DNA of 64,000 nucleotides, from positions 10,885-74,884 of the forward strand of contig CAZNZK010000005.1 in NCBI GenBank assembly GCA_964577595.1, read 5' to 3'. Source of the DNA: an uncultured Candidatus Saccharibacteria bacterium. GTDB taxonomy: Bacteria > Patescibacteriota > Minisyncoccia > Phycocordibacterales > JAKAEA01. Numbering within the stretch: the first letter of the stretch is position 1; every line of letters begins with the position of its first letter. The notes beneath the pieces were generated by a model, which saw nothing but the letters and a program-made list of their open reading frames with translations, was not told where the DNA came from and made no database searches. A program made the translations under genes and the position numbers. Shown here one piece after another: positions 14,911 through 33,154 of this stretch.

Positions 14911-16023
14911 ATGCGCCTTATTTATTTAACCGGTCTCAACTATCCTTCAGCAATTGCTAATAACCAGCAGGTGATGGTGATGGCTGGGGAATTTCATACA
15001 ATTCTCGGTACTGGCGATTTTACGTTGATAGTGAACGCTTCGCGAACAGCGGGGGAATTTGCTGGTTTTCAGCCGGTGACTATTGGTTGCGGTTGGAAAC
15101 ACTTTCGTTTGTTCTACAGTGCCTGGTGGTTTTTCCGGCATGCAAAAGCACTTGTTAATGGCCGCCCCGATGTGGTGGTTTATACCAAAGATCCATATTT
15201 TTGCCTCATCAGTATTTTCTTCAAAAAAATCTTCGGCTACAAAGTAGTGTTTGAATCACACCTTTTATTTTCGCCGATGGTTGATTGGTTCATTGCTCGC
15301 TATGCCGACGCGATTCTCGTGCTGACCTCGCATTTGAAAACTGATCTAGTGGCGAAGGGTGCCTCGGCGCAGAAAATCGCCGTTGTTCCCGACGCTGTTG
15401 ATGTGGCAAAATTCAACCTCAATATTTCTGTTGCCGAAGCTCGGCAGAAATTACACCTGCCACTTGATAAAAAACTCGTCATGTATAGCGGAAGCCTCTA
15501 TGTGCATGAATGGAAAGGCGTGCCGGTGCTGTGCGAAGCCGTCCAGCTTCTACCGCCGGAATACTTAGTAGTGCTTCTGGGCGCTCGCAATGAGGCCGAG
15601 AAAAAACGGGCCGAAGAAGCCGGGAAGGGTAGGGTGCTGGTGGTGGAGCGAAAGACGCACACTGAAATTCCGCTCTATTTACAGGCCGCCGATGCACTCG
15701 TTTTGCCCAACACTCGCGGTAATGCCAATTCGGAAAAGTACACCTCGCCGCTGAAACTTTTTGAATATATGGCCGCCCGCCGGCCCATCGTCGCTTCCGA
15801 CTTACCTTCCATTCGCGAAGTGCTTTCTGAAAAGAATAGTTTTTTGGCCGAGCCTGGCTCAGCGCCGAGCCTGGCAAAAGCAATCGTTGCGGCCACAAAT
15901 AATTCTGGCACCGATTCTGGCCGTATTGTTGACCAGGCCTGGAACGATGTGAAAGACAAAACCTGGCATGCTCGCGCCGAAGACATCCTGGCTTTTATGC
16001 GCACAGCGATTACAATGAAATAA
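14911..16023 (+). CDS. Glycosyltransferase family 4
   Basis: GT-B C-domain LFEYMAARRPIVASDLPSIREVL. Confidence 0.7.
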   Translation: MRLIYLTGLNYPSAIANNQQVMVMAGEFHTILGTGDFTLIVNASRTAGEFAGFQPVTIGCGWKHFRLFYSAWWFFRHAKALVNGRPDVVVYTKDPYFCLISIFFKKIFGYKVVFESHLLFSPMVDWFIARYADAILVLTSHLKTDLVAKGASAQKIAVVPDAVDVAKFNLNISVAEARQKLHLPLDKKLVMYSGSLYVHEWKGVPVLCEAVQLLPPEYLVVLLGARNEAEKKRAEEAGKGRVLVVERKTHTEIPLYLQAADALVLPNTRGNANSEKYTSPLKLFEYMAARRPIVASDLPSIREVLSEKNSFLAEPGSAPSLAKAIVAATNNSGTDSGRIVDQAWNDVKDKTWHARAEDILAFMRTAITMK

Positions 16024-16033
16024 CAGTAAAACA

Positions 16034-16663
16034 ATGGCAAAAATTAGAGATTTCCTGACCGGCAAATTAACCCGCATCCCTTTGGACGCTTTCGTAAAGC
16101 GGCATGCTTCCGACGCCTACACTCTGGATGTCGGCTGTTCGCATTCGCCCTATTCGCAGTTTTTCAAAAACCGCGTCGGCTTTGACATCGCCCCCGGCCC
16201 AGGCGTTGATGTGGTTGGCGACGCCCATGCTATGCCTTTTGCCGCCAACACTTTTGACCTCATTGTGGCTACAGAAGTATTGGAGCACCTCCACTCGCCC
16301 TGGCTGGCCGTTGCCGAAATGCACCGCGTCCTCAAAAAAGGTGGCCATCTCCTCCTCACCACTCGCTTTTTTCAAGTTATCCACGATGCGCCGCACGATT
16401 ATTATCGCTACACCGAATACGGCTTGCGCTACTTGCTGGCCGATTTCAATATTGTTGAGCTTGATGAAGAATTTCCGCCCAAAAATACCATTGCCATGCT
16501 CATCCAACGCGCTGGTCTCAATAAAAATCTTCGGGGTGGCATTCTCGCTCGCGGCTTTTTCCTGGTATTGGCCCGATGTGTCTATGCTCTACCGACATTT
16601 TCTCGCCGCAAAACCGGTCATGCTTTCACTTCCGGCTACTACGTCTTCGCCGCCAAAAAATAG
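16034..16663 (+). CDS. Class I SAM-dependent methyltransferase
   Basis: LDVGCSHSPYS motif I and ATEVLEHLHSP. Confidence 0.7.
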   Translation: MAKIRDFLTGKLTRIPLDAFVKRHASDAYTLDVGCSHSPYSQFFKNRVGFDIAPGPGVDVVGDAHAMPFAANTFDLIVATEVLEHLHSPWLAVAEMHRVLKKGGHLLLTTRFFQVIHDAPHDYYRYTEYGLRYLLADFNIVELDEEFPPKNTIAMLIQRAGLNKNLRGGILARGFFLVLARCVYALPTFSRRKTGHAFTSGYYVFAAKK

Positions 16664-16684
16664 GCGAAATACCGAAAGGCAACC

Positions 16685-17863
16685 ATGTTCAAAAAAACCA
16701 GAGATACGATTAAAAATTACAGCCTGCTTGCTCTCTGTTTTTGCTACGCCCTTGTTCGCGGTTCCGCCAAAAAGCTCGGCACGGAAGTCAACAATATTCT
16801 CATCGTCCACGACGCTAAAATGGGGGATATGGTTTGCCTTACGCCCACCATTCGCGCCGCAAAGCAGGCCCGCCCGCAAGCGCGGGTGTTTGTGTACGGG
16901 AACGCTATTGGCCGGGCTATTCTCGCCGGGAACCAGGCGGTCGGCGGCTATATAGAGAGTAACCAGAACATGTTTGCGCTCATTAAAAGTTTTCGCCAAA
17001 ACAACATTGACTACGTCGCCATCGCCGCGCCCGACTTTCGCGCCGCCGCCATTGCTTTTTTAGCCGGCATCAAAACCATTTGTTGTTCCAACGTTGAAGG
17101 CGGTTTTTCTCCCTGGGAAACCGCGGCCTATGGCTTGCTCAAAAAACTGACGTTCCAGTATCCTCTGCGTATGAATTTTTACGCTCCCGCCGAATATCTC
17201 GGGGCTCTCGCGCCCTTGGGGAGCACTACAAATGCCGCGGGTATTACTAGTGCCGCAAGCTTCACCGACACGCGCAAAGAGCTCTACTATTCCCCGCAAG
17301 CCGCCGAGCGTATTAAGCAGTTTTTCGCCGAGCACCACCTTACTCCGAAAAAAGATTTCATTGTCGCTATTTCTCCCTCGGCAGGCAATAAAATAAAGAA
17401 TTGGCCGGGCGAGCGCTTTGCCGAAGTGGCCGCCTATGCCCATAAAAAGCACAATGCAAAAATCATCATCATCGGTAGCCGCGTAGACGGGCCTGAAGTT
17501 GAGGGAATGCTCCGCCACATGGCTCCGGGCGTGCCCCTTATAAACACCCTCAACCTCTTTTCAATTGACGAGCTCAAAGCTTTTCTTTCGCAAGTAAGCC
17601 TCTTGGTGGCCGTGGACACTGGGCCCATTTACATTGCCGAAGCTTTTGGTGTGCCGACCATTGATATCATTGGCCCCGTCAGTGAGAAGGAACAGCCGCC
17701 CATTTCCGCCATCCACAAAATTGTTTTTCTGCGCGACAGAAAAGCGCCTGCTGTGCATATCATGAACGCCCGCATCTACGACTCCGCCGAAGCCCGCCGC
17801 CAAGTTGAGGGGATTACTGTGGCGATGGTTGAGGAGGTTTTGGAGGAGGTGGTGGGGAAGTAG
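16685..17863 (+). CDS. Glycosyltransferase family 9 (heptosyltransferase-like), second copy
   Basis: VDTGPIYIAEAFGVPTIDIIGP GT9 signature. Confidence 0.6.
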   Translation: MFKKTRDTIKNYSLLALCFCYALVRGSAKKLGTEVNNILIVHDAKMGDMVCLTPTIRAAKQARPQARVFVYGNAIGRAILAGNQAVGGYIESNQNMFALIKSFRQNNIDYVAIAAPDFRAAAIAFLAGIKTICCSNVEGGFSPWETAAYGLLKKLTFQYPLRMNFYAPAEYLGALAPLGSTTNAAGITSAASFTDTRKELYYSPQAAERIKQFFAEHHLTPKKDFIVAISPSAGNKIKNWPGERFAEVAAYAHKKHNAKIIIIGSRVDGPEVEGMLRHMAPGVPLINTLNLFSIDELKAFLSQVSLLVAVDTGPIYIAEAFGVPTIDIIGPVSEKEQPPISAIHKIVFLRDRKAPAVHIMNARIYDSAEARRQVEGITVAMVEEVLEEVVGK

Positions 17864-21222: not shown

Positions 21223-21225
21223 CCG

Positions 21226-21263: not shown

Positions 21264-21269
21264 TATAAT
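21261..21269 (+). promoter_or_regulatory. Extended -10 element (TGgTATAAT), 8 nt upstream of ATG (leaderless-type)
   Basis: TGGTATAAT, then 8 nt, then the ATG at 21278. Confidence 0.45.
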
Positions 21270-21277
21270 TTTAAGCA

Positions 21278-22579
21278 ATGAAAACATCTAAAAAGGGCTC
21301 AGTGGTTGTAGTTTTACTAACCTTAATTGTCGTCGTCTTGGTTGTTCTTGGCGGTGTCTATATTTATTATCAAAACCAACCAAATCAAAGCGGTGCAGTC
21401 AGTCCGTCGCAAACAGAAGTGGCTAACCAGACACCCGTAGCGTCGGACAATCAGACCATTAACTCAAGCCAGGGTACTATTTCAACACCAAACACTCCTC
21501 CAACAGTTGGCTGGAACGTATTCACTAGTTCCTTGTACGGTTTTCAGATAAGTTACCCAAATACATATGGTGCTTATAAATATCAATCTGATGACAATGG
21601 TGGTGGTAGCTATCTGCCTATAACTACAAATACGGATATTGCAAAACTTTCCGGAATATATCAAGGTGTTTTCATCACTCTCCCTCAGGCAATTGCGGCA
21701 GTAAACAAAGCGGCTGATCCCTATGCTCTTGTACCGGCGGCATATGTAACAATACAAATATCTGTGACTAAAACACCTGGAGTGGGATATGCTAGCCTGG
21801 AACAATACAAGAATTTTGAGATCAGCAGTGATGCTACAGCCCAACAAAAATGGGTTTATAGCGACACGACCATAAATGGCCAGCCCGCTTTCAAAGAAAT
21901 TTTTACAAGCTCCAAGGGGACGTATTACAGATTGTCCTTATTCAAGGGTAATGCTCTGTACCTTCTTGATGTAGATCCAAACTCTTATACTCAAGATTCT
22001 GCGACTATTGACGCTATCGCAAATTCCTTTAAGTTTACAAATTCTGCAACGGCTGTTTCTTCCGCTACTGGCGTGACACAACCCGTAGCTCCGACCACCA
22101 ACACCACTTCCACCGCGGGCTGGAAGACCTACACTGATTCGCAGTATGGATTTTCGTTTCAATATCCATCTGCTCTTCCATACTCACTCTTTGCGTCTCT
22201 TAATGGCACACCGACTGCTCTTACTGCTTCTTCAAAAAATAACATTGATAGCAATGGTTGTTATGTCCCCAGCATCTATGCTGGAACAGAAAGGGCTGGC
22301 ACAACAGATTCTAACATCACTCTCAATAAAATATCTTTTTGTGCCTCAAATTATGGCGATCCCGGCGCTGGTCAACTATATACCGCTTACTCATATACCA
22401 CATATCGGAATGGTAACTATGTTACCCTCCAATACGTTGTTCACACACCAAACGGTTGCGGCGCGTATCAAGGAACCGATAAATACCAAGCATGCACTAC
22501 TTTCTTCCAGAGCGGTTTTAATACTGGCGTATTACAACCGATTCAACAGAGTGTCGCAACACTGATGTTTACTCAATAA
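21278..22579 (+). CDS. Hypothetical signal-anchored secreted protein
   Basis: N-terminal TM; two W-x-TYT-x-QYGFSFQYP modules. Confidence 0.5.
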   Translation: MKTSKKGSVVVVLLTLIVVVLVVLGGVYIYYQNQPNQSGAVSPSQTEVANQTPVASDNQTINSSQGTISTPNTPPTVGWNVFTSSLYGFQISYPNTYGAYKYQSDDNGGGSYLPITTNTDIAKLSGIYQGVFITLPQAIAAVNKAADPYALVPAAYVTIQISVTKTPGVGYASLEQYKNFEISSDATAQQKWVYSDTTINGQPAFKEIFTSSKGTYYRLSLFKGNALYLLDVDPNSYTQDSATIDAIANSFKFTNSATAVSSATGVTQPVAPTTNTTSTAGWKTYTDSQYGFSFQYPSALPYSLFASLNGTPTALTASSKNNIDSNGCYVPSIYAGTERAGTTDSNITLNKISFCASNYGDPGAGQLYTAYSYTTYRNGNYVTLQYVVHTPNGCGAYQGTDKYQACTTFFQSGFNTGVLQPIQQSVATLMFTQ

Positions 22580-22626
22580 AAAATCAATCTATTCACATAA
22601 GTCTCGCTATCCGTTAATTACTGACT

Positions 22627-23967
22627 ATGAATCCCAACCAAAACTATTCTAGCCCAATATCACCAACGCCGATTAGTAAGGGGAAGGTTTTTCTCGGACT
22701 GGTTGTCTCCCTAATTCTTGCCTTCGTGGCAATTTTTATTCCGAACTTACTAGTGGTCGCCCAACCCCTCTTCGCCCTCTTTTTTGCGGGCATACCTTTC
22801 GGTGTGTTTCTATTCAGTGGTGTAATTTTTATAATCCTAAACTTCATTGCTCAGAAAATATTCAGGAATTCTCCTTCTCTAAAGAAAGGCATGAAATGGG
22901 GTTATCTATTCATAATTATTGTCGCGGTTTTCTCGCTGTCAACTGATATTACTGCCTTGCAAAACATGAGTGCTCTGCAAGGCAGTTATGCCGCGTCTTC
23001 CAGTGGGGATGTCAGTGGTTGTCTTAAAGTCAACGATCCTTATGACAAAGATATGACGATAGATACTTGTCTTCAGAATATTCACGATCAAAAACCGGGC
23101 GATTCAACGATTTGCGACAGTATGATTACGGATTCAGCAAATCCAACAGACTTGATGCGAACGCAAAGCTTCAAACCTCAGTGTTATGACGATGTTAATG
23201 CTTGGAATGCCGCTAATTCGGGTGATATTTCTTTGTGTAAAAAAATGTCGTTCACCACGGATATTGATTCGTGTTACCAGACTGTTGCAATCAGAACAAC
23301 AAACTATTCTTACTGTCAAAATCTCTCTTCGCCTGATCTGGTGCAAAATTGTTACAAGGTTTTTCTACTAGATCATAAAACACCTCAATTTATGCAGAGT
23401 GTGTGCCCGTTGATAACCAATCAAACCTACTACGGATTAGCGGGGTGTACGGCGACTGGTGTGACACTGCCCGTAGCTCCGACCACCAACACCACTTCCA
23501 CTGCTGCTTGGCAAACATATACGAGCACCCAATATGGATTTTCAATGAAGTATCCTCAGGGCTGGAGCGTCACTGGTTCGCAACCACTTTCCTATGTTAA
23601 TCCACTTACCTTGTCAAAAACATTTGGTACTGGTCCCCAAGGATACACTTGCAGTTCAGTGGTTAGTTTGATTTCAACGAGCGTGCTTGATCAAAATGCT
23701 TCCGGATGGGGAGCAAAGACTCCTTTTGTGAGCGCTACTAATCGCTTAGTTGCTGGCTGGACTAAAAGTAATGACTTCCCTGGTACATTTGACTATTTTC
23801 TGAAAAATACGAACAGTCAGTATTCGTATCAGGTTTTTGATTCTACTCAAACTTTTGGAAGTTATAGTCAAGATCCTAACGCTGAAATAACCCCCTCAAA
23901 AAACATCTACGTAAAAGAATGTACGGATATTTTCTCCCAAATGCTCTCAACGTTCACTTTCATTTAA
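22627..23967 (+). CDS. Hypothetical membrane protein with Cys-rich extracellular region
   Basis: Three or four TM helices, a Cys-rich region, and the same PVAPTTNTTSTA-W-TYT-QYGFS-YP module as the preceding gene (32-nt identical stretch). Confidence 0.5.
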   Translation: MNPNQNYSSPISPTPISKGKVFLGLVVSLILAFVAIFIPNLLVVAQPLFALFFAGIPFGVFLFSGVIFIILNFIAQKIFRNSPSLKKGMKWGYLFIIIVAVFSLSTDITALQNMSALQGSYAASSSGDVSGCLKVNDPYDKDMTIDTCLQNIHDQKPGDSTICDSMITDSANPTDLMRTQSFKPQCYDDVNAWNAANSGDISLCKKMSFTTDIDSCYQTVAIRTTNYSYCQNLSSPDLVQNCYKVFLLDHKTPQFMQSVCPLITNQTYYGLAGCTATGVTLPVAPTTNTTSTAAWQTYTSTQYGFSMKYPQGWSVTGSQPLSYVNPLTLSKTFGTGPQGYTCSSVVSLISTSVLDQNASGWGAKTPFVSATNRLVAGWTKSNDFPGTFDYFLKNTNSQYSYQVFDSTQTFGSYSQDPNAEITPSKNIYVKECTDIFSQMLSTFTFI

Positions 23968-23973
23968 TAAAAT

Positions 23974-24315
23974 ATGAATAATCCGATTGCTACTCCGGCA
24001 CAAAAAGTACTTCGCATTTGTCGTATTGTCTTATTCATACTTACACCATGGAATGTGTTGGTAGGGTTGTTGCTGTTTGTGGGTTCTGATTTATCCCACG
24101 ACCCACAATCAATTTCGCTGTCAATCCCGCTATTCTCCCTTCTCCTTCTGGTATTTAGTATTATTTTAATAAATAAAATAGGACGATGGTTGTGTTATCC
24201 TGCCGCGGAATTAAAACCGGAGCTGCTTACTCCCATATTCATAGTAACGATCTTGGTCGTGATAGCGGCAATTATACCTACGCTAGTTGTTTCTGGTGTG
24301 TTTGGTAGTTTCTAG
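23974..24315 (+). CDS. Small hypothetical membrane protein
   Basis: Three TM helices; 113 aa. Confidence 0.4.
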   Translation: MNNPIATPAQKVLRICRIVLFILTPWNVLVGLLLFVGSDLSHDPQSISLSIPLFSLLLLVFSIILINKIGRWLCYPAAELKPELLTPIFIVTILVVIAAIIPTLVVSGVFGSF

Positions 24316-24428: not shown

Positions 24429-25706
24429 TTACTGCAACGCACTCAGTGCCGCAATAGTCTGCGGGCCGGCGAAGCCATTTTCCCCGGTGATATTTTGCTC
24501 TGTCTGAAAGTTTTGAAGGGCAACACGGGTGCAGGTGCCAAAGATGCCGCTTCGTGGGCAGGTATTATTTGTTTTGTCGTTGGGTGGATAGGTGCCAGCA
24601 TAGGCCAGGGCAGTTTGGAGGGCGAAAATGTCTAAGGCTGAACCGTTGGTGGCAGTAACTGGCGCGTTCCAGGTGTGGGGCAGAACGAGGGTGTCATAAG
24701 GGGTGGCAAGCTTGGCGGAGCTCGCCGGGTCAAAAAAGTCTTGAAGGCCGAGATAGGTTTGAAAGGCAAGGTCATTGAGAGCAGTGCTTCGGAGGGCGGG
24801 ATTGGTAAACTGGGCTTCATAGATGTAGCCATACTCAATGAGCATGCTGGCGGCATCGGCGGTATCGTAGGAACCGAGAGCGATGAGCTCGGGGTCGTCA
24901 ACGATGCCGCTGGACTCGGCGGGTAGGTTACTAACGGGATTGTACTTTTTTAAGCGGTTGAAAATGGTAGCGGCAACAGCTTTTGTGGTGGCGCTATTTT
25001 CATATTGTTCGGCCGGCACATACATAGCAAAGCCGGAGTATTTCCCGACATTCATTCCTTGGCGGCCAGCGTAATCGTTGAAATGAATATGGAGAACAAT
25101 GTCAATGTCGTTTTCATTGGCCCACTTGGTCATGCCATACAGGCGGGTGGCGCTGGCAGGCGGGGTAGAGAGGTGATCGATAGTTACGACAGGCGCGGTA
25201 ATTGCCCCAATTGCCACAAGGTGTGAAAACGACGCATATGACGCGTTTTGCCAGGCTTGAATATCGCTCCAGTTGTTCTGGAAATAACTGGTGAGTTCGG
25301 GGCTCCAGGCGGTATTGTCACGGGCGATGAATACTTGGTAATGAGTATTTGAGGCTAATAATTTCTGGAGATCCTGGCCGAGCTCCACGGTCATGTTTCG
25401 CTCTTTAAGCGAGCCGAATTCCGCGCCGCCAGAATCGGGGTTGTGGCCGGGTACGATGAGAATACGGACTTTTTTAGCCTGATTAGTACTTGTGTCGACG
25501 TAGTCGTTTTTGATTTGAGCGATTGTTCTGGGGTTGTGGCTGAGGATGACAGCAGCTAATTGTTCACCGATGTTTTCTACTGCCGAGACAATTGCTTGGG
25601 TTGCCTGTGGGTGGTCGTAGGCAAGTTGCGCGGTGACAAAAAGGGCGAGGCATGCAAATAGGCCGAACACGTGCACCTTTCTGAAATGCTTTTTCGGAGG
25701 TTCCAT
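24429..25706 (-). CDS. N-acetylmuramoyl-L-alanine amidase (Amidase_3) with C-terminal peptidoglycan-binding domain
   Basis: Signal peptide; ILIVPGHNPDSGGAEF and VLHIHFNDYAG Amidase_3 motifs; C-terminal GENGFAGPQTIAALSALQ PG_binding_1-like. Confidence 0.7.
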   Translation of the reverse strand: MEPPKKHFRKVHVFGLFACLALFVTAQLAYDHPQATQAIVSAVENIGEQLAAVILSHNPRTIAQIKNDYVDTSTNQAKKVRILIVPGHNPDSGGAEFGSLKERNMTVELGQDLQKLLASNTHYQVFIARDNTAWSPELTSYFQNNWSDIQAWQNASYASFSHLVAIGAITAPVVTIDHLSTPPASATRLYGMTKWANENDIDIVLHIHFNDYAGRQGMNVGKYSGFAMYVPAEQYENSATTKAVAATIFNRLKKYNPVSNLPAESSGIVDDPELIALGSYDTADAASMLIEYGYIYEAQFTNPALRSTALNDLAFQTYLGLQDFFDPASSAKLATPYDTLVLPHTWNAPVTATNGSALDIFALQTALAYAGTYPPNDKTNNTCPRSGIFGTCTRVALQNFQTEQNITGENGFAGPQTIAALSALQ

Positions 25707-25733: not shown

Positions 25734-28328
25734 TTACGCCGCAGTAAACCACCTTCCAAAAGAGTGCACGCGTTCATCGAGGCGGGCATCGGCGAGGGCG
25801 GATTCTATGTTTTGTACTTGGGTTGGATTTTCCGCGAGGTTGGAAAGCAGAGTGACAAGCCCGAGGCGCTTGAGTTCTAAAGTGAGGGAAGTGACGGTGG
25901 CGTCGTTGGGAACTAGGCCAATAAGCTGACTTTGTGCGGTAGTGAAAGTAATGTGTTTGCCGGCAATATCTAAGCCGACACATAATCCTCCGGCAATAAT
26001 TGGGCGGATTTTTTGGGTGATGGTTGTGTCGGCGAGATTGTCGGTGATCGTGCCATTCAGGCCGGAAATGGTGAAGGTGCCATTTTTATAATCGCGGGGT
26101 TCTATGATTGTGGCTGGCACTTTTTTACCCGCAACAGAAAAGGTAATTTCAACGGCTGGCTTCCCGGCGCGTTTTTTGAGGCGCGCGCTTATGATAGGTG
26201 CATTATTCATAAGCGTTTTTATGAGTGCTATGCCGTGGTAGGCGTAGGCGGATTGGTTGAATGTCATGCTGGTGATTTCCGACAGGATTTCTTTTAAGGG
26301 TTGAATCCATGGCAAATACGCAGTGTCTTCGGCGGCCACGACGTGCGCGAAATTTTTGAAATATTTTTTATTGCCGAGATATTTTTTGGGAAAAACGGGG
26401 GTGTCTAAAATGAGGCCGATGGTGCTTGTGTCAAATTTTTCCAGGAAAGCGAGAACGGGGGCGACTTGGGCTACTGGCACGCCGACGTATATCCAGGCGG
26501 CTTTTCGCACAAGGTATTTGGGCAAATTGGGGAGGGGCACGACATCATAGTGCTTGGGGCCAATATAAATGCGGCGGGCTCCTTCCGCGTAGACGCCGGT
26601 GATTTCAAATTTTCCGGTTGCTTCTATGGCAGGAAGGACGTCGGTTTGGGCACGCTTGCCGGCACCGATGACGATAATATTTTTGCGTCCCGTTGTTTTC
26701 GCACGCTGTTTGGGTGCGGGCAATTCTTTTACATCCATTTTCTTTTTCAGAGTATCGGCAAGGCGGACAGCGAGAGCGCACATGGCGTAGGTTGGGTTGG
26801 CACAGCCGCTGGTGGGGAAAACGGAACCGCCACAAATGTACAAGTTGCTAACGGTGTGAACGCGAAGGTTGGCATCAGCTACGGATGTTTTCGGATCCTT
26901 GCCCATGCGTGTGCCGCCGAGGTGATGGCTGGCGTCAAAGTTGATGGGCCAGGGCGCGCGTTCGGCCAAGTTACTCTCTAGGGTGCCAACACCGTTCTTC
27001 TCCATTTCCTCGGCGAAAATGCGGTGGAGCTCAATGAGTGATTTTCTATCAAGGGCGGAGGTGTTCACGTTGACGGCGGGCACGGGCAGGCCGTTTTCGT
27101 CGCGCTCATCGGAAAGGGTTAAACGGTTTTCCGGCAGGGGTTCCATTTCCATGAAATTGCGCAGTTCGCCGGCTTTGGCGCGGAAGCCTTTTTTGCCACG
27201 AAGGCGGTAGAGTGCGAAGGCGGCAATGGTTGGTAGGTTTATGACGATGGAAAAATATTGAGCGAGGCGGCTCTCCTTTGCGGGTTGGTGTTTAATAATG
27301 CCAAGCAAAGCTTTGACACCTTTATTGTTGGTCCAGGGAAAAATGGGTTCAAGGCGGAAGTAGCTATTGAGGAGGCCGAGCTCGCGCTGAGCGCTTTCAG
27401 AAAGACGAAAACCAGTGTAGCCAACCCAGCCGTTTTTTGCATTGCCGAAAGGGTAGGGGATATTGTGCGGTGAGCCGCGCTTTAGGCGAAATGTGCCGAC
27501 ATTGCCTTTGGGATGATTCATTAAATAGCGGCCAACTTGGTCGCGCTCATTGCCGAGGCCGCTTGGGTTGGTGTCGCGGGAAAGCAAAAGGAGGCGCGCG
27601 CTTTCCAGGCCGCCCGCCGCCATCACGAATATTTTCGCGGAAATGGTGCGCTCGGTGCCGTTTTGGGAGCGGATGCTGGCGCTGGTGACGCTGACTGCGC
27701 CGCTAGTGTCGCGTGTTGAATTCAATTTAAGAACAGTAGCATCAAGCCAGAGGTCAACATTTGGCCCGTAAAAAATCCACTGATGTTTTTTGACGAAATC
27801 CCAGGGCGGCACGCTGGCGATGAAGCGCTTGCCGTTGAGGCGACTGGTGTTCACCAGCATATTGTTGCTATCGTCGGTGGTTTCAAAAAGAGCTAGGGGC
27901 GGGAAACCGTAAGCTGTGGTGCGTTCGTAAAAAGGCGCGAGCTCGGCCGCGCTTACTGGCCAGCCAGCAGGGTTAGAAAGAAACGGGCGAAATTCCAGGT
28001 CAATAGCATCCATGGGCGCACTGCCGCCGCCCCACATGAGCGTGGCGCCGCCGAGCACGCGTTCGCGCGAAGAGGGCTTGGTAGCTATTTCGCCGAGGTT
28101 TTGGACTTTGCGCAAGGCATTGCCGTAAGGGCTGGTTTTTAAGCTGCCACTTTCCAAAACGCAGATGCGTTTGCCCGCCATTTTCGTATCGGCCGCTAAT
28201 TCGGTGGCAAGAGTGATGCTCACCGGCCCAGCGCCAATAATGCAGATGTCGTAAGTTGTGTCGGAGGCTTGGTTTGCGGCGTCCTTCGGGATGTGGTGCT
28301 CTGCGTCGTCGGAATATTTTACCGCCAT
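25734..28328 (-). CDS. Fusion protein: GMC-family FAD oxidoreductase (N) + Gfo/Idh/MocA-like NAD-binding domain (C)
   Basis: DICIIGAGPVSITLATELAA FAD dinucleotide motif and HHLGGTRMG...NLYICGGSVFPTSGCANPT GMC C-terminal signature. A ~330-aa extension follows, starting NIIVIGAGKRAQTDVLPAIEA (Rossmann). ATG at 28328; GTG alternative at 28346. Confidence 0.6.
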   Translation of the reverse strand: MAVKYSDDAEHHIPKDAANQASDTTYDICIIGAGPVSITLATELAADTKMAGKRICVLESGSLKTSPYGNALRKVQNLGEIATKPSSRERVLGGATLMWGGGSAPMDAIDLEFRPFLSNPAGWPVSAAELAPFYERTTAYGFPPLALFETTDDSNNMLVNTSRLNGKRFIASVPPWDFVKKHQWIFYGPNVDLWLDATVLKLNSTRDTSGAVSVTSASIRSQNGTERTISAKIFVMAAGGLESARLLLLSRDTNPSGLGNERDQVGRYLMNHPKGNVGTFRLKRGSPHNIPYPFGNAKNGWVGYTGFRLSESAQRELGLLNSYFRLEPIFPWTNNKGVKALLGIIKHQPAKESRLAQYFSIVINLPTIAAFALYRLRGKKGFRAKAGELRNFMEMEPLPENRLTLSDERDENGLPVPAVNVNTSALDRKSLIELHRIFAEEMEKNGVGTLESNLAERAPWPINFDASHHLGGTRMGKDPKTSVADANLRVHTVSNLYICGGSVFPTSGCANPTYAMCALAVRLADTLKKKMDVKELPAPKQRAKTTGRKNIIVIGAGKRAQTDVLPAIEATGKFEITGVYAEGARRIYIGPKHYDVVPLPNLPKYLVRKAAWIYVGVPVAQVAPVLAFLEKFDTSTIGLILDTPVFPKKYLGNKKYFKNFAHVVAAEDTAYLPWIQPLKEILSEITSMTFNQSAYAYHGIALIKTLMNNAPIISARLKKRAGKPAVEITFSVAGKKVPATIIEPRDYKNGTFTISGLNGTITDNLADTTITQKIRPIIAGGLCVGLDIAGKHITFTTAQSQLIGLVPNDATVTSLTLELKRLGLVTLLSNLAENPTQVQNIESALADARLDERVHSFGRWFTAA

Positions 28329-28411: not shown

Positions 28412-29647
28412 ATGAAAATTCTCATTCTTTCGGACGATTTTCCGCCGATGAGCTTCGGTGCCGGCGTGGTGGCCGCCAACCTGGCCGGCGAATATAAACG
28501 CCGCGGCGATGAGGTGATTGTTGTTACAACTGTTCGCGACAGTGCGCAGGGCGGCGTGGCAACATATGAAGGCATGAAAGTGCATCGTATCGTCACTTCT
28601 TACAATACTTTTTTTCAGGCGTACGTTGGCTTGTGGAACCCGGGGGTGGTGCGGCAAGTCAAAAAAATCCTGGCGGAATATAAGCCCGAAGTGGTGCATG
28701 CGCATAATTTGCATGGTTATCTTTCCTACATCTCGCTCGTGGAGGCCAAGCGTGCCGGCGCGCGGGTGATTGTGACTTGCCACGACGTTCTCTCTTTTCA
28801 TTATGGAAAATTCGTGGAATTTATTGACCGCTCCAGCACGGCTATTCCGCAGAGTTTTAATTACCGCATAAGCCCGTGGCGGCAACTGCGCGCATATCGT
28901 TTCCGCTACAATCCATTTCGCAATCTAATTATTAGAAGGATTTTTCGCAACCACGTTGATCACGTGGTGGCAGTGAGCAATACTTTGCAGGAGGCGATGC
29001 TGGCTAATGGTATTAAAAATGTCAGCGTTGTTCACAACGGCATTGACCCAGAGGCGTGGAAAGTTTCGGCCGAAGAATTGGCAGCGTTTAAAGATGCGCA
29101 CAACATTTCCAATCGCCGCATTGTGCTCTTTGGTGGCCGCTTGAGCGGGCCGAAAGGGGGAGCGGAAACTATTGCCGCCATGGAGCTTGTTTCAAAGGAA
29201 ATTTCCGATGCCACACTTCTGGTGGTGGGGCCAAAAGAGGGCTATGGGGAGACTATGGAAAAGCTGGCCACGCAAAAGGGTATTCACACCGTTTTTACGG
29301 GCGTTTTGGCTGGCCCAGGGCTTCACGCCGCCTATGCCGCCGCCGACGTGGTTTTGTTTCCTTCGGTGTGCTTTGATACCTTTGGAATGGTCAATATTGA
29401 GGGTATGAGCGCCCAAAAGCCGGTAGTAGCCACTTGCTTCGGGGGTGCCCCGGAAATCGTCCAGAATGGCGAAACGGGCTATATAGTGAACCCGTATAAC
29501 ATCGCCGATATGGCCGCCAAGATTAGCGCTCTTTTGGCCGACCCTGCCAAAGCGCGAAAAATGGGCGAGGCTGGTTACCAGCGAATGCTCGCCGCCTTTA
29601 CCCTCAAGCGCCAGGCCGATTCTTATTATGATTTATTTCATCACTAA
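28412..29647 (+). CDS. Glycosyltransferase family 4
   Basis: MKILILSDDFPP start and GT-B C-domain VNIEGMSAQKPVVATCFGGAPEIVQNGETGYIV. TTG alternative at 28382. Confidence 0.7.
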   Translation: MKILILSDDFPPMSFGAGVVAANLAGEYKRRGDEVIVVTTVRDSAQGGVATYEGMKVHRIVTSYNTFFQAYVGLWNPGVVRQVKKILAEYKPEVVHAHNLHGYLSYISLVEAKRAGARVIVTCHDVLSFHYGKFVEFIDRSSTAIPQSFNYRISPWRQLRAYRFRYNPFRNLIIRRIFRNHVDHVVAVSNTLQEAMLANGIKNVSVVHNGIDPEAWKVSAEELAAFKDAHNISNRRIVLFGGRLSGPKGGAETIAAMELVSKEISDATLLVVGPKEGYGETMEKLATQKGIHTVFTGVLAGPGLHAAYAAADVVLFPSVCFDTFGMVNIEGMSAQKPVVATCFGGAPEIVQNGETGYIVNPYNIADMAAKISALLADPAKARKMGEAGYQRMLAAFTLKRQADSYYDLFHH

Positions 29648-30677
29648 ATCCGGTCGCGATGCCGGCAGTTCCCGCCAGCGCGGTTTTCTCATGGCGGAAT
29701 TTTTGAACAAAGCCGGCTTTCCGGCCGAAGTAATTGCTCCACCAGAATATCTGGCTGGCACGACGCTTTTTCAAAAATGGGGGATGCAGTGGCGCTACAC
29801 GCGGAAAATTCTCTCCATCAAAAAAACCGACACGGTTGTTTTACAAAATATCATCAGAAATATTCGCCTTATTATGCTCGTGGCCGTGCTAAAAACCTTT
29901 CGCCATCCGCGCACTATTTTTGATATTGATGACGGCAGTTATATGCGCAACCCGTGGATTGTAAAAACACTCGTGGCTCTTTCCGACAAAATTGTGGTGG
30001 CCAGCCACCGCCTTGCGGAGTGGCCGGGTTTTCAAAAGAAGCCCATTCATATTATGCCCAACCCCGTGGATGCAGAGTTGGCCGCGCGTTTTTCCGCAAA
30101 AGAAAAAGGGGGCGAAAAAAACGGAGGCGACGTAGTCGTGGGCTGGATAGGTGGCGGTCCGGGAAGTATCCCTAATTTAAAATTGCTCGTGCCAATTTTT
30201 CAGCGCTTGGTGGCGCAAAAAATTTCATTTCGTTTTCGGTTTATTGGCACGCTCGGCAACGTGCGGGTTGAGGAATTATTTTCCTCCATCCCCGGCCTCA
30301 ACGCTGAACTGGTGGAAAAAATTGATTGGGCCAAGCTCGGTGAAATTCAGAAGGCTAATGCCGTTTTTGATATTGGTGTGTGCCCGCTAGTTGATAACGA
30401 AGAGAGCCGGGTGCGCTGTAGCCTAAAAGTGCTTGATTATATGGCTGCCGGCATCCCCGTGGTTATTTCGCCGATAGGGGAGAACAATTATTTTATTAAA
30501 AACGGCGAGCAAGGTTTTTTGCCCGCAACGTTAGATGAGTGGGCCGAAAAATTAACGTTGCTTATAAAAGACGCCGCGCTTCGCCAACGCCTCGGTGCGG
30601 CTGGCCAAAAACGCGTAGCCGAAAAATTCAGCTATCAAGCGCAAGTGCCTGGTTTCGCCAATTTTATTTTCCACTAG
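29628..30677 (+). CDS. Glycosyltransferase family 1
   Basis: LDYMAAGIPVVISPIGENNYFIKNGEQGF; overlaps upstream gene by 20 nt. Confidence 0.6.
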   Translation: MIYFITKSGRDAGSSRQRGFLMAEFLNKAGFPAEVIAPPEYLAGTTLFQKWGMQWRYTRKILSIKKTDTVVLQNIIRNIRLIMLVAVLKTFRHPRTIFDIDDGSYMRNPWIVKTLVALSDKIVVASHRLAEWPGFQKKPIHIMPNPVDAELAARFSAKEKGGEKNGGDVVVGWIGGGPGSIPNLKLLVPIFQRLVAQKISFRFRFIGTLGNVRVEELFSSIPGLNAELVEKIDWAKLGEIQKANAVFDIGVCPLVDNEESRVRCSLKVLDYMAAGIPVVISPIGENNYFIKNGEQGFLPATLDEWAEKLTLLIKDAALRQRLGAAGQKRVAEKFSYQAQVPGFANFIFH

Positions 30678-30678
30678 C

Positions 30679-31032
30679 ATGCGCGTTCAAAAGGAAATTG
30701 TCGGTATTGGTACCGATATTGTGGAAATTGAGCGCCTGCGCAATGCGCGGGAATTGAAGCGCGCCGCCGATTTCTTTTTCCTACCAAGCGAATTGCGCGA
30801 TATGAAAAAAAGCCGCAACCAAGCTGAGTTTGTGGCCTCCCGCCTAGCCGCCAAAGAAGCAGTCATTAAGGCCTATCCAGGAACAATTCATTATCACGAC
30901 ATCGCCATAACCAAACGCGGCAAAAAAATCATCGCAAAATTAGTTCGTCCCGCCGACAAAAAATTTACGGTTTTTGTCAGTATTGCTCATGAAAAAAAAT
31001 ATGCACTCGGCTATGCAATTTTATGTACGTAG
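30679..31032 (+). CDS. acpS: Holo-[acyl-carrier-protein] synthase (4'-phosphopantetheinyl transferase)
   Basis: IVGIGTDIVEIERL and LAAKEAVIKA motifs; 117 aa. Confidence 0.8.
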   Translation: MRVQKEIVGIGTDIVEIERLRNARELKRAADFFFLPSELRDMKKSRNQAEFVASRLAAKEAVIKAYPGTIHYHDIAITKRGKKIIAKLVRPADKKFTVFVSIAHEKKYALGYAILCT

Positions 31033-31121
31033 GCTTGCAGAATTAAGGGTTTTTAGCTGAAGCTGTTGTGGGTAAGTCATATGTTGTTTTTTGTTATCAG
31101 TAGTTGTATAGTCGACTATGA

Positions 31122-31430
31122 ATGTTGCATATGAATTCCTTTAATCAACAATCTCGCATACCCCGGTGGCTACGCATCACTGGAACTATCCTTGAGATGA
31201 TGCTCATCTATGTCGCATGCTTCCCGTTTTCTATCGGCGTGGCAATATTCTTAGCGTGGATTGGAGGCCAACGCGGAATCTATGTGTTTGGACTTGTTCC
31301 GTTACCCGGCTTTTTTCTTGGAGGCCCTCTTGTGATTGAGTGCCTGATTTTTATTTTTCATAAACCATCAAGACAATGGTTAAGAAAGCGTTTTTCTCGT
31401 GATCCACTACCACCTCTGTCGAGTACTTAA
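31122..31430 (+). CDS. Small hypothetical membrane protein
   Basis: Three TM helices; 102 aa. Confidence 0.35.
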   Translation: MLHMNSFNQQSRIPRWLRITGTILEMMLIYVACFPFSIGVAIFLAWIGGQRGIYVFGLVPLPGFFLGGPLVIECLIFIFHKPSRQWLRKRFSRDPLPPLSST

Positions 31431-31474
31431 TTTAGTACATTGTTATTCGTTCTAGAATTGAGTATTGTTTGCCC

Positions 31475-33154
31475 ATGAACGTCTTGGAATATCTTAAAAA
31501 AGCATCTGAACATAAGAAAAGTTCACTCATAGGTGCAGAAATGCGCATCGCTATCGTCAGTAATTTTACCGACGACATTTTGGAGAAAATTTTTGTGGGT
31601 ATGTGCCTCACGGAAAACATTCAGCCCGATATTTTTCGCGTGCCATTCAAACAGTATCTTTTTCAGTTACAAGATTCAACTTCCGCTTTGGCCAAACACA
31701 AGGCCCAGGCCACATTTGTCTTCTTTGACGTTAACCCCTATTTAGAATCGGAATTCACTTCTGATCTGAATCATATTGATGAAATAATCGCCGATTTGGA
31801 GCGTTTTGCCACAGCCAGTGCGGGAAGCGTAATCCTGCACACTATCGCTTTGCCCACCAGCCTCCAGCATGGCCGACTTTTCCGCGAGCATCCGCTCCAA
31901 GCCGCAATTAACCGCTACAATTCGGCGATTAAAAAGCTTGCCGAAAAATCTTCAAATGTTTTCATTATTGAAACCGAACGTTTGGTGGCCGCAATGGGGG
32001 AGAGCAAGGCTCGCGACATGCGCGGGCTTTATGCCTTTGGCCAGCCGTTTAGTCACGAATATCTGCTTCGTGTCGCGCAGGAATGGATGGCCTACGTGCG
32101 CTCGCTCGCCGGCAAAATCCGCAAATGCATCGTGGTTGATTTGGACAACACTCTTTGGGGCGGTATTGTGGGCGAGGTGGGGCCGCTTGAAATAAAACTT
32201 GGGCCCGATTACCCGGGCAATGCCTACCGCGAATTTCAGCGCGTTTTGTTGGACTATTATAACCACGGCATTATTTTGGCCGCCAATAGTCGCAACAATG
32301 CCGCCGACGTTGACGAAGTTTTTGAGAAAAATCCGTACATGATTTTGAAAAAGTCGCATTTTGCCGCTTTTCTCACGAATTGGAAAACCAAGCCGGAAAA
32401 TTTGCGCACTATTGCCGAAGACCTCAATATCGGCCTAGATAGTATCGTTTTTCTTGATGACGACCCCGTCAACCGCGACATGGTTAAAACGCAGTTGCCC
32501 GAAGTGCTGGTACCCGATTTTTCCCTGCCGCCGGAGGAATATGCACGCACCCTTTTAGATTTGGACGCTTTTCACACCCTCAAAATGACCACCGAGGATA
32601 AAGAGCGCGGCAAAATGTACGCCGCCGAGCGCGAGCGAAAGGTTGCTGAAAAGGAAACGCAAAATCCTGAGGAGTATATAAAAACCCTCAATATAAAGAT
32701 GGATTTTTCCTGTAACGACATTGCGCTCATTCCGCGCCTCGCCCAGCTCACCCAGAAAACCAATCAGTTTAACTTGACCACCTGCCGCTCCACCGAAGCC
32801 GAGCTTACCGAGTGGATTAAGAACGGCGCGCTCATTTACGCTGGCGATATTAAAGATAAATTTGGTCCGTATGGCATCACAGTTATGGCGGCCATTAAAC
32901 CGACGAGTAAAACTGAAGCCGACCTGGCCATTTTCCTGATGAGTTGCCGCGTCTTTGGCCGGAACATAGAATTTGATTTTATGAAAAAGATTTTGGCCGA
33001 CCTCAAAGAGCGTGGCTTCAAAAAGCTAACCACTCACTTCATTCCCACCGCCAAAAACGCGCCGTCAAAGGAGTTTCTTAAGACCGCAGGTTTCAAGGAA
33101 GTTGAGCGAAAAAATTCTGGTGAAGTTGTTTGTGAAATTAATGTAAAATCTTAG
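31475..33154 (+). CDS. FkbH-like HAD-IIIC family protein (phosphatase/acyl-carrier loading enzyme)
   Basis: IVVDLDNTLWGG, ANSRNN...FAAFLTNWKTKPENL and IVFLDDDPVNRDMV match the HAD-IIIC/FkbH signature (TIGR01681/01686-like); ~560 aa as in FkbH/OzmB-type proteins. ATG at 31475 (TTG at 31469). Confidence 0.7.
   Translation: MNVLEYLKKASEHKKSSLIGAEMRIAIVSNFTDDILEKIFVGMCLTENIQPDIFRVPFKQYLFQLQDSTSALAKHKAQATFVFFDVNPYLESEFTSDLNHIDEIIADLERFATASAGSVILHTIALPTSLQHGRLFREHPLQAAINRYNSAIKKLAEKSSNVFIIETERLVAAMGESKARDMRGLYAFGQPFSHEYLLRVAQEWMAYVRSLAGKIRKCIVVDLDNTLWGGIVGEVGPLEIKLGPDYPGNAYREFQRVLLDYYNHGIILAANSRNNAADVDEVFEKNPYMILKKSHFAAFLTNWKTKPENLRTIAEDLNIGLDSIVFLDDDPVNRDMVKTQLPEVLVPDFSLPPEEYARTLLDLDAFHTLKMTTEDKERGKMYAAERERKVAEKETQNPEEYIKTLNIKMDFSCNDIALIPRLAQLTQKTNQFNLTTCRSTEAELTEWIKNGALIYAGDIKDKFGPYGITVMAAIKPTSKTEADLAIFLMSCRVFGRNIEFDFMKKILADLKERGFKKLTTHFIPTAKNAPSKEFLKTAGFKEVERKNSGEVVCEINVKS

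What the first reader, a model, noticed from the sequence alone, without database searches (positions are those of the whole stretch)
25734..28328. GMC FAD-oxidoreductase fused to a Gfo/Idh/MocA-like NAD-binding domain, co-directional with the amidase
The 865-aa protein has a complete GMC oxidoreductase, from the FAD motif to the HHLGG...FPTSG C-terminal signature. An in-frame ~330-aa second domain follows, beginning with a Rossmann GxGxxA-like motif (IVIGAGKRA). The two genes are co-directional, and the amidase gene lies 27 nt downstream.

I do not recognise this fusion as a characterised architecture. It could couple sugar oxidation with NAD(P)-linked redox in cell-wall or glycan remodelling.
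Basis: partly seen in the sequence, partly recalled or inferred. Interest (0 to 1): 0.55.

Follow-up and report, generated by a model that had tools for sequence, protein, structure and literature searches.

The report
Fused two-enzyme sugar oxidoreductase gene
This 864-residue protein is a real natural fusion of two genes that sit side by side in many other bacteria, a flavin-dependent sugar oxidoreductase and an unannotated NAD(P)-type partner, and it points to an uncharacterised two-step sugar redox system that in this genome lies inside a large surface-glycan gene cluster.

Summary
One ORF on the minus strand (25734-28328, 864 aa) encodes a GMC flavoprotein (residues ~24-531) joined in frame to a ~316-aa second domain. 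An amidase gene starts 27 nt downstream.

The fusion is not an artefact. The identical protein is called on six contigs, and 68 fused homologues were collected.

The window's second domain has no Pfam hit. Its model (pLDDT 94.5) matches only Gfo/Idh/MocA oxidoreductases. It belongs to a distinct family (642 representatives) that NCBI names "hypothetical protein" in the one named example. In this family the canonical EKP lysine is an invariant threonine.

The main finding concerns gene order. In 61 of 80 reference-genome loci, mostly Planctomycetota, the two halves are separate co-directional genes, typically overlapping by 4 nt. Fusion arose repeatedly, and the second domain has no other partner.

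The GMC half is nearest to sugar-ring-oxidising enzymes. In CPR bacteria, including this window, the gene lies among glycosyltransferases, methyltransferases and flippases. The amidase link is local only.

The most likely function is a two-cofactor sugar oxidoreductase that makes a keto-sugar and then reduces it with NAD(P)H. Substrate and chemistry are inferred. I found no literature on the pair. It is a new variant of known kinds, of moderate interest.

The parts
25734..28328 (-). Complete fusion gene, 864 codons plus TAA. An alternative in-frame GTG start lies at 28346.
   Evidence: ORF list. The identical 864-aa product is called on six public contigs.
26736..28259 (-). GMC flavoprotein half (residues ~24-531). 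FAD-binding GxGxxG is at residues 32-37 with E59. The putative catalytic pair is H469 and N511.
   Evidence: Pfam GMC_oxred_C E 8e-25. PDB profile hits to FAD-glucose dehydrogenase and fructose dehydrogenase catalytic subunits, E 6e-40 to 2e-36. Foldseek on the full-length model. Invariant columns.
26685..26735 (-). Inter-domain linker (residues ~532-548, KKKMDVKELPAPKQRAK...). This is the least confident part of the model.
   Evidence: pLDDT below 50 at residues 537-542. Linker length and composition vary widely among fused homologues.
25737..26684 (-). EKP-less Gfo/Idh/MocA-fold domain (residues 549-864). Conserved features are the G555-x-G557-x-R559 loop, D642-T643-P644 in place of EKP, E667-D668, Y697-H698, R745-D746-Y747, K820 and D847.
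   Evidence: AF2 model with pLDDT 94.5 and pTM 0.91. Foldseek hits are only Gfo/Idh/MocA proteins, E about 1e-11. 9 of 26 relatives hit PF01408. hhalign against E. coli YceM. Conservation in 173 members.
24429..25706 (-). Downstream co-directional gene for an N-acetylmuramoyl-L-alanine amidase (Amidase_3 + PG_binding_1, with an N-terminal hydrophobic anchor). It is probably co-transcribed, but the association is not conserved.
   Evidence: Pfam. 27-nt gap. Adjacency is seen only on contigs with the identical fusion protein and not.
28412..31032 (+). Divergently transcribed genes: a GT4 glycosyltransferase (28412-29647), a GT1-like glycosyltransferase (29628-30677) and a 4'-phosphopantetheinyl transferase (30679-31032). 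They are context, not part of the enzyme.
   Evidence: Pfam. Gene calls on L001.
14911..17863 (+). GT4 (14911-16023), a ~209-aa SAM methyltransferase (16034-16663) and GT9 (16685-17863). The methyltransferase falls in the ~215-aa cluster that travels with the GMC gene in other CPR genomes. GT9 sits next to the fusion gene in L008/L009.
   Evidence: Pfam. Neighbour clustering across loci, where the ~215-aa methyltransferase cluster spans 11 loci including this genome's contig L001. GT9 overlaps the fusion gene by 4 nt in L008/L009.

Best explanation
The gene is a natural fusion of a conserved two-gene module. The N-terminal half is a cytoplasmic FAD-dependent GMC oxidoreductase of the sugar-oxidising branch, related to FAD-glucose dehydrogenase, fructose dehydrogenase, pyranose oxidase and C-glycoside oxidase. 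The C-terminal half is a dinucleotide-binding protein with the Gfo/Idh/MocA fold. It belongs to a separate, unannotated family whose canonical EKP lysine is replaced by threonine.

The two halves work as one enzyme or complex on a carbohydrate. The proposed course has two steps. First, the flavin half oxidises a sugar hydroxyl to a keto group. Second, the other half reduces that keto-sugar with NAD(P)H, or processes it in some other way. The net result would be an epimerised or redox-modified sugar. The logic resembles DprE1/DprE2, although the proteins are unrelated to that pair.

In this genome, and in other CPR bacteria, the substrate is most likely a precursor or unit of a surface glycan.

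Shown: the domain identities, the fusion being real, obligate partnership of the two halves, and the glycan gene context. Inferred: the cofactors, the order of steps, the substrate and the net reaction.
For: Fusion is real:
- The identical protein is found on 6 contigs from several samples.
- About 50 full-length homologues at 34-53% identity were found, and 68 fused members were collected in total.

Obligate partnership:
- In 80 reference-genome loci found through the GMC half, the second domain is a separate co-directional ORF directly downstream in 61, fused in 7 and absent in 12.
- The median stop-to-start distance is -4 nt, and 28 of 43 cases show an exact 4-nt overlap.
- All 173 near-complete second domains are either stand-alone (105) or fused to GMC (68), with no other architecture. 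At least ~20 fused/split switches are needed on a neighbour-joining tree.
- The full-length AF2 model has pTM 0.84 despite a disordered linker.

GMC half:
- Pfam GMC_oxred_C.
- PDB profile hits: 6a2u at 6e-40, 7w2j at 2e-36, 9fl2 at 3e-25.
- Foldseek hits: 8jej at 5e-28, 6a2u, 7qf8, 7dve, 8qve.
- H469 and N511 are invariant.

Second half:
- Model pLDDT is 94.5, and the top Foldseek hits are all Gfo/Idh/MocA proteins.
- PF01408 is hit by 9 of 26 relatives.
- hhalign against YceM covers the Rossmann half.
- G555, R559, T643, P644, E667, D668, H698, R745, Y747, K820 and D847 are conserved in at least 167 of 173 members. This argues for a working site.

Glycan context:
- This window.
- Other CPR loci.
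Against: - No biochemical data exist for any member, and I found no literature.
- The canonical Gfo/Idh/MocA lysine is missing, so hydride-transfer chemistry in the second half is not assured.
- 12 of 80 loci, including several CPR glycan clusters, have the GMC gene without the partner. Two of these are cut at contig ends. The GMC half can therefore work alone.
- In Planctomycetota the pair has no conserved glycan neighbours, so glycan biosynthesis cannot be the general role.
- The electron acceptor of the flavin is unknown. There is no Fe-S cysteine cluster, and no cytochrome or small-subunit genes were seen nearby.
- No PAE map or coordinates were available, so the inter-domain geometry could not be inspected.
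Confidence: 0.55

Rival explanations
1. The second half is an electron-relay or cofactor-recycling partner and not a second catalytic step on the sugar. In this reading NAD(P)H/NAD(P)+ bound there exchanges reducing equivalents with the flavin. Either the GMC half runs as an NAD(P)H-driven keto-sugar reductase, or a tightly bound nicotinamide is re-oxidised through the flavin.
For: - The pairing is tight and exclusive, and a defined two-domain arrangement is predicted.
- The nearest solved GMC relatives (FAD-GDH, FDH) are catalytic subunits that hand electrons to partner subunits.
- CPR bacteria generally lack quinones and respiratory chains (general knowledge), so another acceptor would be needed.
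Against: - Reduction of NAD(P)+ by a GMC flavin is thermodynamically uphill (general knowledge of the redox potentials).
- Residues in the non-Rossmann half of the second domain (H698, R745-D746-Y747, K820, D847) are nearly invariant. That points to a substrate pocket of its own.
- GMC-only loci exist.
Confidence: 0.18
2. The second half is a non-catalytic subunit, a Gal80-like pseudo-dehydrogenase. It would stabilise, localise or regulate the GMC enzyme, possibly sensing NAD(P)(H).
For: - The catalytic lysine of the EKP motif is replaced by threonine in 172 of 173 members.
- Gal80p is among the fold matches.
- Some genomes dispense with the partner.
Against: The very strong conservation of a charged and aromatic constellation (E667, D668, Y697, H698, R745, D746, Y747, K820, D847) exceeds what a scaffold usually needs. 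Biliverdin reductase shows that Gfo/Idh/MocA-fold enzymes can be active without the lysine (general knowledge).
Confidence: 0.14
3. The pair is catabolic. It would be a glycoside 3-oxidase-type system that oxidises sugars or glycosides for breakdown, as in C-glycoside deglycosylation or 3-keto-glycoside pathways, and would have no role in glycan biosynthesis.
For: - Bacterial pyranose and C-glycoside oxidases are among the closest structures.
- Most carriers are Planctomycetota, with sulfatase genes near the pair in 10 loci.
Against: - No conserved sugar-phosphate-isomerase/TIM-barrel lyase, transporter or glycosidase neighbour was found.
- In CPR genomes the neighbours are biosynthetic: GT4, GT9, flippase and methyltransferases.
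- The protein has no signal peptide (sequence).
Confidence: 0.1
4. The fusion is an assembly, frameshift or gene-calling artefact that joins two separate genes.
For: The split form is the commoner state, and the two genes usually overlap by 4 nt. A single sequencing error could therefore mimic a fusion.
Against: - The identical 864-aa protein is found on six contigs from independent ENA, Logan, NCBI and JGI sources.
- 68 fused homologues have lineage-specific linkers.
- The reading frame is continuous, and the junction is a ~17-residue linker and not an overlap.
Confidence: 0.02

Closest known systems
FAD-dependent glucose dehydrogenase catalytic (alpha) subunit of Burkholderia cepacia (PDB 6a2u/8grj) and fructose dehydrogenase large subunit of Gluconobacter japonicus (7w2j/8jej)
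   Same: These are the best sequence-profile and structural matches to the GMC half. They share the FAD fold and the C-terminal His/Asn-containing GMC motifs, and they oxidise sugar hydroxyls.
   Different: - Those enzymes are periplasm-facing membrane complexes with a 3Fe-4S cluster, a small hitch-hiker subunit and a cytochrome c subunit.
- The window protein has no conserved cysteine cluster and no signal peptide.
- Its partner is a Gfo/Idh/MocA-fold protein instead.
- Identity is only about 19%.
Bacterial pyranose oxidases / C-glycoside 3-oxidases (PDB 9fl2, 7qf8, 7dve, 8qve)
   Same: They belong to the same GMC sub-branch by profile and fold. They are soluble enzymes that oxidise C2/C3 hydroxyls of sugars and glycosides.
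   Different: - The NCBIfam pyranose oxidase model scores 60 bits against a cut-off of 545.
- Those enzymes are stand-alone oxidases in catabolic clusters with lyase partners.
- None is known to be paired or fused with a Gfo/Idh/MocA-fold protein, and I found no such report.
Gfo/Idh/MocA oxidoreductases (e.g. TM0312 1zh8, MviM/YceM 1tlt, GenD2 6nor, sulfoquinovosidase SqgA 8qc3, inositol dehydrogenases)
   Same: They share the two-domain fold of an N-terminal Rossmann domain plus an alpha/beta sheet domain. They also share the glycine-rich loop and overall topology through the EKP strand. Many act on sugar hydroxyl or keto groups.
   Different: - Identity is 9-17%.
- The window sequence gives no Pfam hit.
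- EKP is replaced by (D/E)TP in 101 of 102 stand-alone members, and none has EKP.
- The family has its own invariant motifs: AED..LPW, SxYxYH, EPRDY..G and KRxGL.
- The family is found only with a GMC partner.
DprE1/DprE2 (decaprenylphosphoryl-ribose 2'-epimerase of mycobacteria)
   Same: This is a functional analogy only. A flavoprotein oxidises a sugar hydroxyl to a ketone, and a separate NAD(P)H-dependent reductase gives the epimer. The two are encoded by adjacent genes and act in cell-envelope glycan synthesis (general knowledge).
   Different: The folds are unrelated. DprE1 belongs to the vanillyl-alcohol-oxidase family and DprE2 is a short-chain dehydrogenase. No homology was tested or expected here. 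The analogy is a hypothesis about mechanism and not a membership claim.

Membership tests
GMC oxidoreductase superfamily | N-terminal FAD-binding beta-alpha-beta with GxGxxG and an acidic residue ending beta2 | tested here: met
   IIGAGP is at residues 30-35 and VLESG at 57-61. G32, G34, P35 and E59 are invariant in 38 fused homologues. A weak DAO hit covers residues 27-62.
GMC oxidoreductase superfamily | Pfam GMC_oxred_C above the gathering score | tested here: met
   88.4 bits against a cut-off of 24.6, residues 397-520, covering the full model 1-139.
GMC oxidoreductase superfamily | Pfam GMC_oxred_N above the gathering score | tested here: not met
   17.6 bits against a cut-off of 23, and only model positions 147-217 are matched. 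The N-terminal half is nevertheless matched structurally over ~600 columns to FDH and FAD-GDH, so this reflects divergence and not absence.
GMC oxidoreductase superfamily | Catalytic His plus His/Asn pair near the C-terminus | tested here: met
   H468-H469 in SHHLGGTRMG and N511 in GCANPT are invariant in alignment A3. Assignment to the catalytic positions is by motif correspondence (inference).
FAD-GDH / FDH type catalytic subunits | Cys-rich 3Fe-4S motif, small TAT hitch-hiker subunit and cytochrome c subunit | tested here: not met
   No cysteine is invariant in A3. No such neighbours were seen. There is no signal peptide.
Pyranose oxidase (NCBIfam TIGR02462) | Score above the equivalog cut-off | tested here: not met
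   60.4 bits against 544.9, and only the C-terminal ~140 residues align.
Gfo/Idh/MocA oxidoreductase family | Two-domain fold: N-terminal Rossmann domain plus C-terminal alpha/beta sheet domain | tested here: met
   AF2 model with pLDDT 94.5. The 50 listed Foldseek PDB hits are Gfo/Idh/MocA-fold proteins (including Gal80p and biliverdin reductase) or entries titled putative oxidoreductases, with E down to 1.6e-11 and TM 0.44-0.62.
Gfo/Idh/MocA oxidoreductase family | Pfam PF01408 (GFO_IDH_MocA) match | tested here: not met
   The window's own domain has no family at E<=10. Of 26 relatives, 9 give matches with a best E of 3e-6. P0003 carries a weak precomputed hit.
Gfo/Idh/MocA oxidoreductase family | Glycine-rich dinucleotide-binding loop GxGxxG/A after beta1 | tested here: met
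   IGAGKRA is at residues 554-560. G555 is present in 168/173 and G557 in 163/173 members. The loop aligns to VGLGGIA of E. coli YceM.
Gfo/Idh/MocA oxidoreductase family | Conserved EKP motif with its lysine | tested here: not met
   The motif is D642-T643-P644. T is present in 172/173 and P in 173/173 members. EKP occurs in 0 of 102 stand-alone members. DTP aligns on DKP of YceM (hhalign probability 38%, E 3e-4).
Gfo/Idh/MocA oxidoreductase family | Catalytic Asp/His (DxxxH-type) in the C-terminal domain | tested here: inconclusive
   H698 is invariant in 173/173 members, at the start of the helix that follows the first strand of the sheet domain. No residue-level structural alignment could be obtained, and no Asp lies four residues before it.
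Gfo/Idh/MocA oxidoreductase family | NAD(P) binding and hydride transfer | not testable with these tools
   Needs cofactor analysis of purified protein. Sequence hint only: the residue after beta2 is Arg or Lys in 150/173 members (NADP-like), but it is Glu582 in the window copy.

The most novel reading that the evidence does not exclude
The GMC flavoprotein and its EKP-less Gfo/Idh/MocA-fold partner form a previously unrecognised two-cofactor (FAD plus NAD(P)H) sugar epimerase or keto-sugar-processing system. It would be a convergent counterpart of DprE1/DprE2. It is widespread in Planctomycetota and, in CPR/Patescibacteria, recruited into surface-glycan synthesis. The partner would define a new enzyme family with a catalytic apparatus different from that of canonical Gfo/Idh/MocA enzymes.
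Probability: 0.3. Interest if true: 0.65.

Novelty: new variant of a known kind. Interest (0 to 1): 0.45.

Why it matters
- Both superfamilies are well known, but this pairing has not been described in the literature I could search. The partner family is not caught by Pfam for the window's copy, and the one stand-alone member that carries a source name is called "hypothetical protein" by NCBI.
- Split/fused gene pairs with 4-nt overlaps are among the most reliable genomic predictors of a physical and functional complex. This gives a concrete, testable handle on at least 642 unannotated protein clusters.
- In CPR bacteria almost nothing is known about envelope glycans. An oxidoreductase embedded in the glycosyltransferase, methyltransferase and flippase cluster would indicate an unusual (keto, epimerised or further derivatised) sugar in their surface polymers.
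- Sugar-oxidising GMC enzymes are also of biotechnological interest for biosensors and C-glycoside processing. A naturally fused FAD/NAD(P) version would add a new design.

Tried and rejected
- Pfam and NCBIfam on the isolated second domain gave nothing, even at E<=10.
- PDB sequence searches with the single domain and with its profile gave only spurious short hits. The top profile hits were ribosomal protein uL18, through a chance FDRSxYxYHG motif. I rejected them because only about 25 residues match and the fold is unrelated.
I used the GMC alignment A2 instead, with a local HMM scan of the flanks.
- Promoter and terminator scans around the gene were at shuffle level and uninformative.
- Rfam found no RNA family in the window.
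- Four literature searches found nothing on a GMC plus Gfo/Idh/MocA pair.
- In the neighbour clustering, the two largest non-target clusters were antisense shadow ORFs inside high-GC genes, so I discarded them.
- A horizontally acquired island could explain the 50-55% GC around the gene. I rejected this because the window average is about 49%, and the 18-24 kb block of hypothetical genes is the outlier at about 42% GC.
- A peptidoglycan-remodelling role together with the amidase was rejected because the adjacency is not conserved.
Full report
**1. What is in the sequence**

The minus strand carries one uninterrupted ORF from 28346 (GTG) or 28328 (ATG) to the TAA at 25734-25736. Public gene calls use the 864-aa ATG form.
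- IIGAGP at residues 30-35
- SHHLGGTRMG at 467-476
- GGSVFPTSGCANPT at 500-513
- IVIGAGKRA at 552-560

The next gene on the same strand (24429-25706) is an Amidase_3 + PG_binding_1 protein. It starts 27 nt after the stop codon.

**2. The N-terminal half is a GMC flavoprotein of the sugar-oxidising branch**

- Pfam GMC_oxred_C matches at E 8e-25. GMC_oxred_N is matched only below threshold.
- A profile of this half (alignment A2) finds three groups of PDB sequences. These are the FAD-glucose dehydrogenase catalytic subunit (6a2u, E 6e-40), the fructose dehydrogenase large subunit (7w2j, E 2e-36) and bacterial and fungal pyranose oxidases.
- Foldseek with the full-length model gives the same order, followed by C-glycoside oxidases.
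- The presumed catalytic His/Asn pair (H469, N511) and the FAD loop are invariant in 38 fused homologues.
- Unlike FAD-GDH and FDH, there is no conserved cysteine cluster and no signal peptide. No cytochrome or small-subunit genes lie nearby.
- The NCBIfam equivalog models for pyranose oxidase, MftG, choline dehydrogenase and cholesterol oxidase are all far below their cut-offs.

**3. The C-terminal half has the Gfo/Idh/MocA fold but is not a regular member**

On its own, the window's domain hits no Pfam family even at E<=10 and no PDB sequence meaningfully.

I aligned 26 second domains from fused homologues (A1). The results were:
- AlphaFold2 gave a model with mean pLDDT 94.5 and pTM 0.91.
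- The top Foldseek matches are all Gfo/Idh/MocA-fold proteins: TM0312, MviM/YceM, GenD2, SqgA, inositol dehydrogenases, Gal80p and biliverdin reductase. E-values reach about 1e-11, TM-scores are 0.44-0.62 and identity is 8-17%.
- Nine of the 26 relatives reach PF01408, with a best E of 3e-6.
- hhalign against E. coli YceM aligns the Rossmann half. It places the family's invariant D-T-P on YceM's D-K-P, which is the EKP motif (probability 38%, E 3e-4).

Across 173 family members the following residues are conserved: G555 (168), R559 (168), T643 (172), P644 (173), E667 (173), D668 (172), H698 (173), R745 (167), Y747 (168), K820 (171) and D847 (170). None of 102 stand-alone members has EKP.

This is therefore a distinct, strongly constrained branch of the fold with a remodelled site. 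The residue after beta2 is Arg or Lys in 150 of 173 members, which is typical of NADP(H) binders. The window's copy is one of three with Glu.

**4. The fusion is genuine and is one state of a conserved gene pair**

- The identical protein occurs on six contigs from independent sources.
- About 50 full-length homologues at 34-53% identity were found, with very different linkers.
- A search of 1.84 billion representative proteins with A1 found 642 members (292 at E<=1e-30). Most are stand-alone proteins of about 340 aa.
- NCBI names a stand-alone member "hypothetical protein" and a fusion "GMC family oxidoreductase".

I fetched 80 loci from reference genomes through the GMC half and scanned them with an HMM of the second domain:
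- 61 loci have the second domain as a separate ORF directly downstream on the same strand.
- 7 loci have it fused.
- 12 loci lack it, two of them at contig ends.

In the split loci the median stop-to-start distance is -4 nt, and 28 of 43 cases with an identifiable ATG overlap by exactly 4 nt. That indicates translational coupling.

All 173 near-complete second domains are either stand-alone or fused to GMC. On a neighbour-joining tree at least ~20 switches between the two states are needed. That number is rough, but the fused forms are clearly polyphyletic.

The full-length model has pTM 0.84 although residues 537-542 of the linker are disordered. This suggests a defined arrangement of the two halves. 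No PAE map was available to confirm it.

Taken together, this is strong "Rosetta-stone" evidence that the two proteins act as one unit.

**5. Genomic context**

Carriers are mostly Planctomycetota, including the cultured Saltatorellus ferox and Engelhardtia mirabilis. Others are Paceibacterota, Saccharibacteria, Parcubacteria, Entotheonella and a few Proteobacteria.

Across all loci nothing but the pair itself is conserved.

In the CPR loci the GMC gene, with or without its partner, travels with:
- a ~215-aa SAM methyltransferase (11 loci)
- a Polysacc_synt flippase (9 loci)
- two GT4/GT1 glycosyltransferases (9 and 8 loci) (examples)

This window fits that pattern:
- Positions 48-17,863 are a near-continuous array of eight GT4/GT1 genes, two GT9 genes, five methyltransferases, a GH18, a polysaccharide deacetylase and a UDP-sugar-dehydrogenase-like gene.
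- Two more glycosyltransferases, a phosphopantetheinyl transferase and an FkbH-like protein are transcribed divergently from the fusion gene.
- A Wzy_C-TPR protein lies at 46.5 kb.

The amidase is adjacent only on contigs that carry the identical protein. It is absent around P0002, P0003, P0004 and P0064.

**6. Mechanism**

Shown:
- A GMC sugar-type flavoprotein and a dinucleotide-fold partner are obligately linked.
- Both halves are under strong constraint.
- In CPR bacteria they sit in glycan-biosynthesis clusters.

Inferred:
- The GMC half oxidises a sugar hydroxyl to a ketone, as its nearest relatives do.
- The partner then uses NAD(P)H to reduce the keto-sugar, giving net epimerisation, or processes it in some other way. 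This copies the logic of DprE1/DprE2 with unrelated folds.

Rivals are an electron-relay or cofactor-recycling role for the partner, a non-catalytic Gal80-like subunit, and a catabolic glycoside-oxidase role. An artefact is excluded at the level available. The substrate and the flavin's electron acceptor remain unknown.

**7. Novelty and verdict**

Four literature searches found no description of this pairing. No solved structure spans both halves. Both superfamilies are familiar, so this is not categorically new. It is a new variant: an unannotated, EKP-less Gfo/Idh/MocA-fold family that exists only as the partner, or fused domain, of one GMC clade.

The domains and the glycan link hold. The architecture is not unique, the second domain is not a regular family member, and the amidase link is incidental.

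Interest is moderate at 0.45. The finding gives a well-founded, testable hypothesis for several hundred unannotated protein clusters and for CPR glycan chemistry, but no function has been demonstrated.

Noticed in passing
window 17948-24315 (+ strand): Six consecutive genes encode hypothetical proteins. None of the six has a Pfam hit on record, and most have an N-terminal hydrophobic anchor. Most of this block is clearly lower in GC (about 0.42) than its flanks (0.49-0.53). Two neighbours (21278-22579 and 22627-23967) share a near-identical segment, PVAPTTNTTSTA(G/A)W(K/Q)TYT..QYGFS.
   Followed up: no
window 48-17863 (+ strand): A very long co-directional glycan-biosynthesis array holds about eight GT4/GT1 genes, two GT9 genes, two FkbM-type and three class-I methyltransferases, a GH18, a polysaccharide deacetylase and a truncated-looking UDP-glucose/GDP-mannose dehydrogenase-like ORF.
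   Followed up: partly
window 30679-38100: A phosphopantetheinyl transferase (30679-31032) and an FkbH-like phosphatase/loader (31469-33154) are followed by a CrtI/amine-oxidase-like flavoprotein (35297-36757) and a MaoC-dehydratase gene on the same contig. This suggests an acyl- or glyceryl-carrier-protein pathway next to the glycan genes. No carrier-protein gene was noticed.
   Followed up: no
window 26583-26585 (codon of Glu582): The residue after beta2 of the second domain is Arg or Lys in 150 of 173 family members, but Glu in this copy (one of 3). This may be a switch from NADP(H) to NAD(H) preference.
   Followed up: partly
window ~27200-27320 (GMC residues ~340-375): The window's GMC half lacks about 38 profile positions (340-377) of an insertion present in most relatives (consensus ...WK....V.LRDYSETGDDS..QN.R...).
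   Followed up: no
window 26223-26258 (FNQSAYAYHG): The family's conserved FDRSxYxYHG motif is nearly identical to a motif in bacterial ribosomal protein uL18 (FDRSGYKYHGR). This produced the only PDB and Pfam sequence 'hits' of the profile. I judged it a chance short-motif resemblance.
   Followed up: partly
L091 / L092 (contigs with P0003, 53% identical fusion): Here the fused gene sits in what looks like a defence or mobile island (Fic, SLFN-like helicase, RadC, MazG-like, NYN, LAGLIDADG) with no glycan genes. In L005 (P0002) it follows a 2544-aa RHS/CHAP toxin-like gene.
   Followed up: no
window 46500-48980 (+): An 826-aa Wzy_C (O-antigen ligase/polymerase-like) protein carries a C-terminal TPR array. 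Large membrane proteins of similar build (735 aa) lie near the GMC gene in four CPR loci (L003, L010, L017, L019). Homology between them was not tested.
   Followed up: no
window 1-64000: No Rfam family reaches its gathering score anywhere in the 64 kb, so there are no tRNA, rRNA or riboswitch matches.
   Followed up: no
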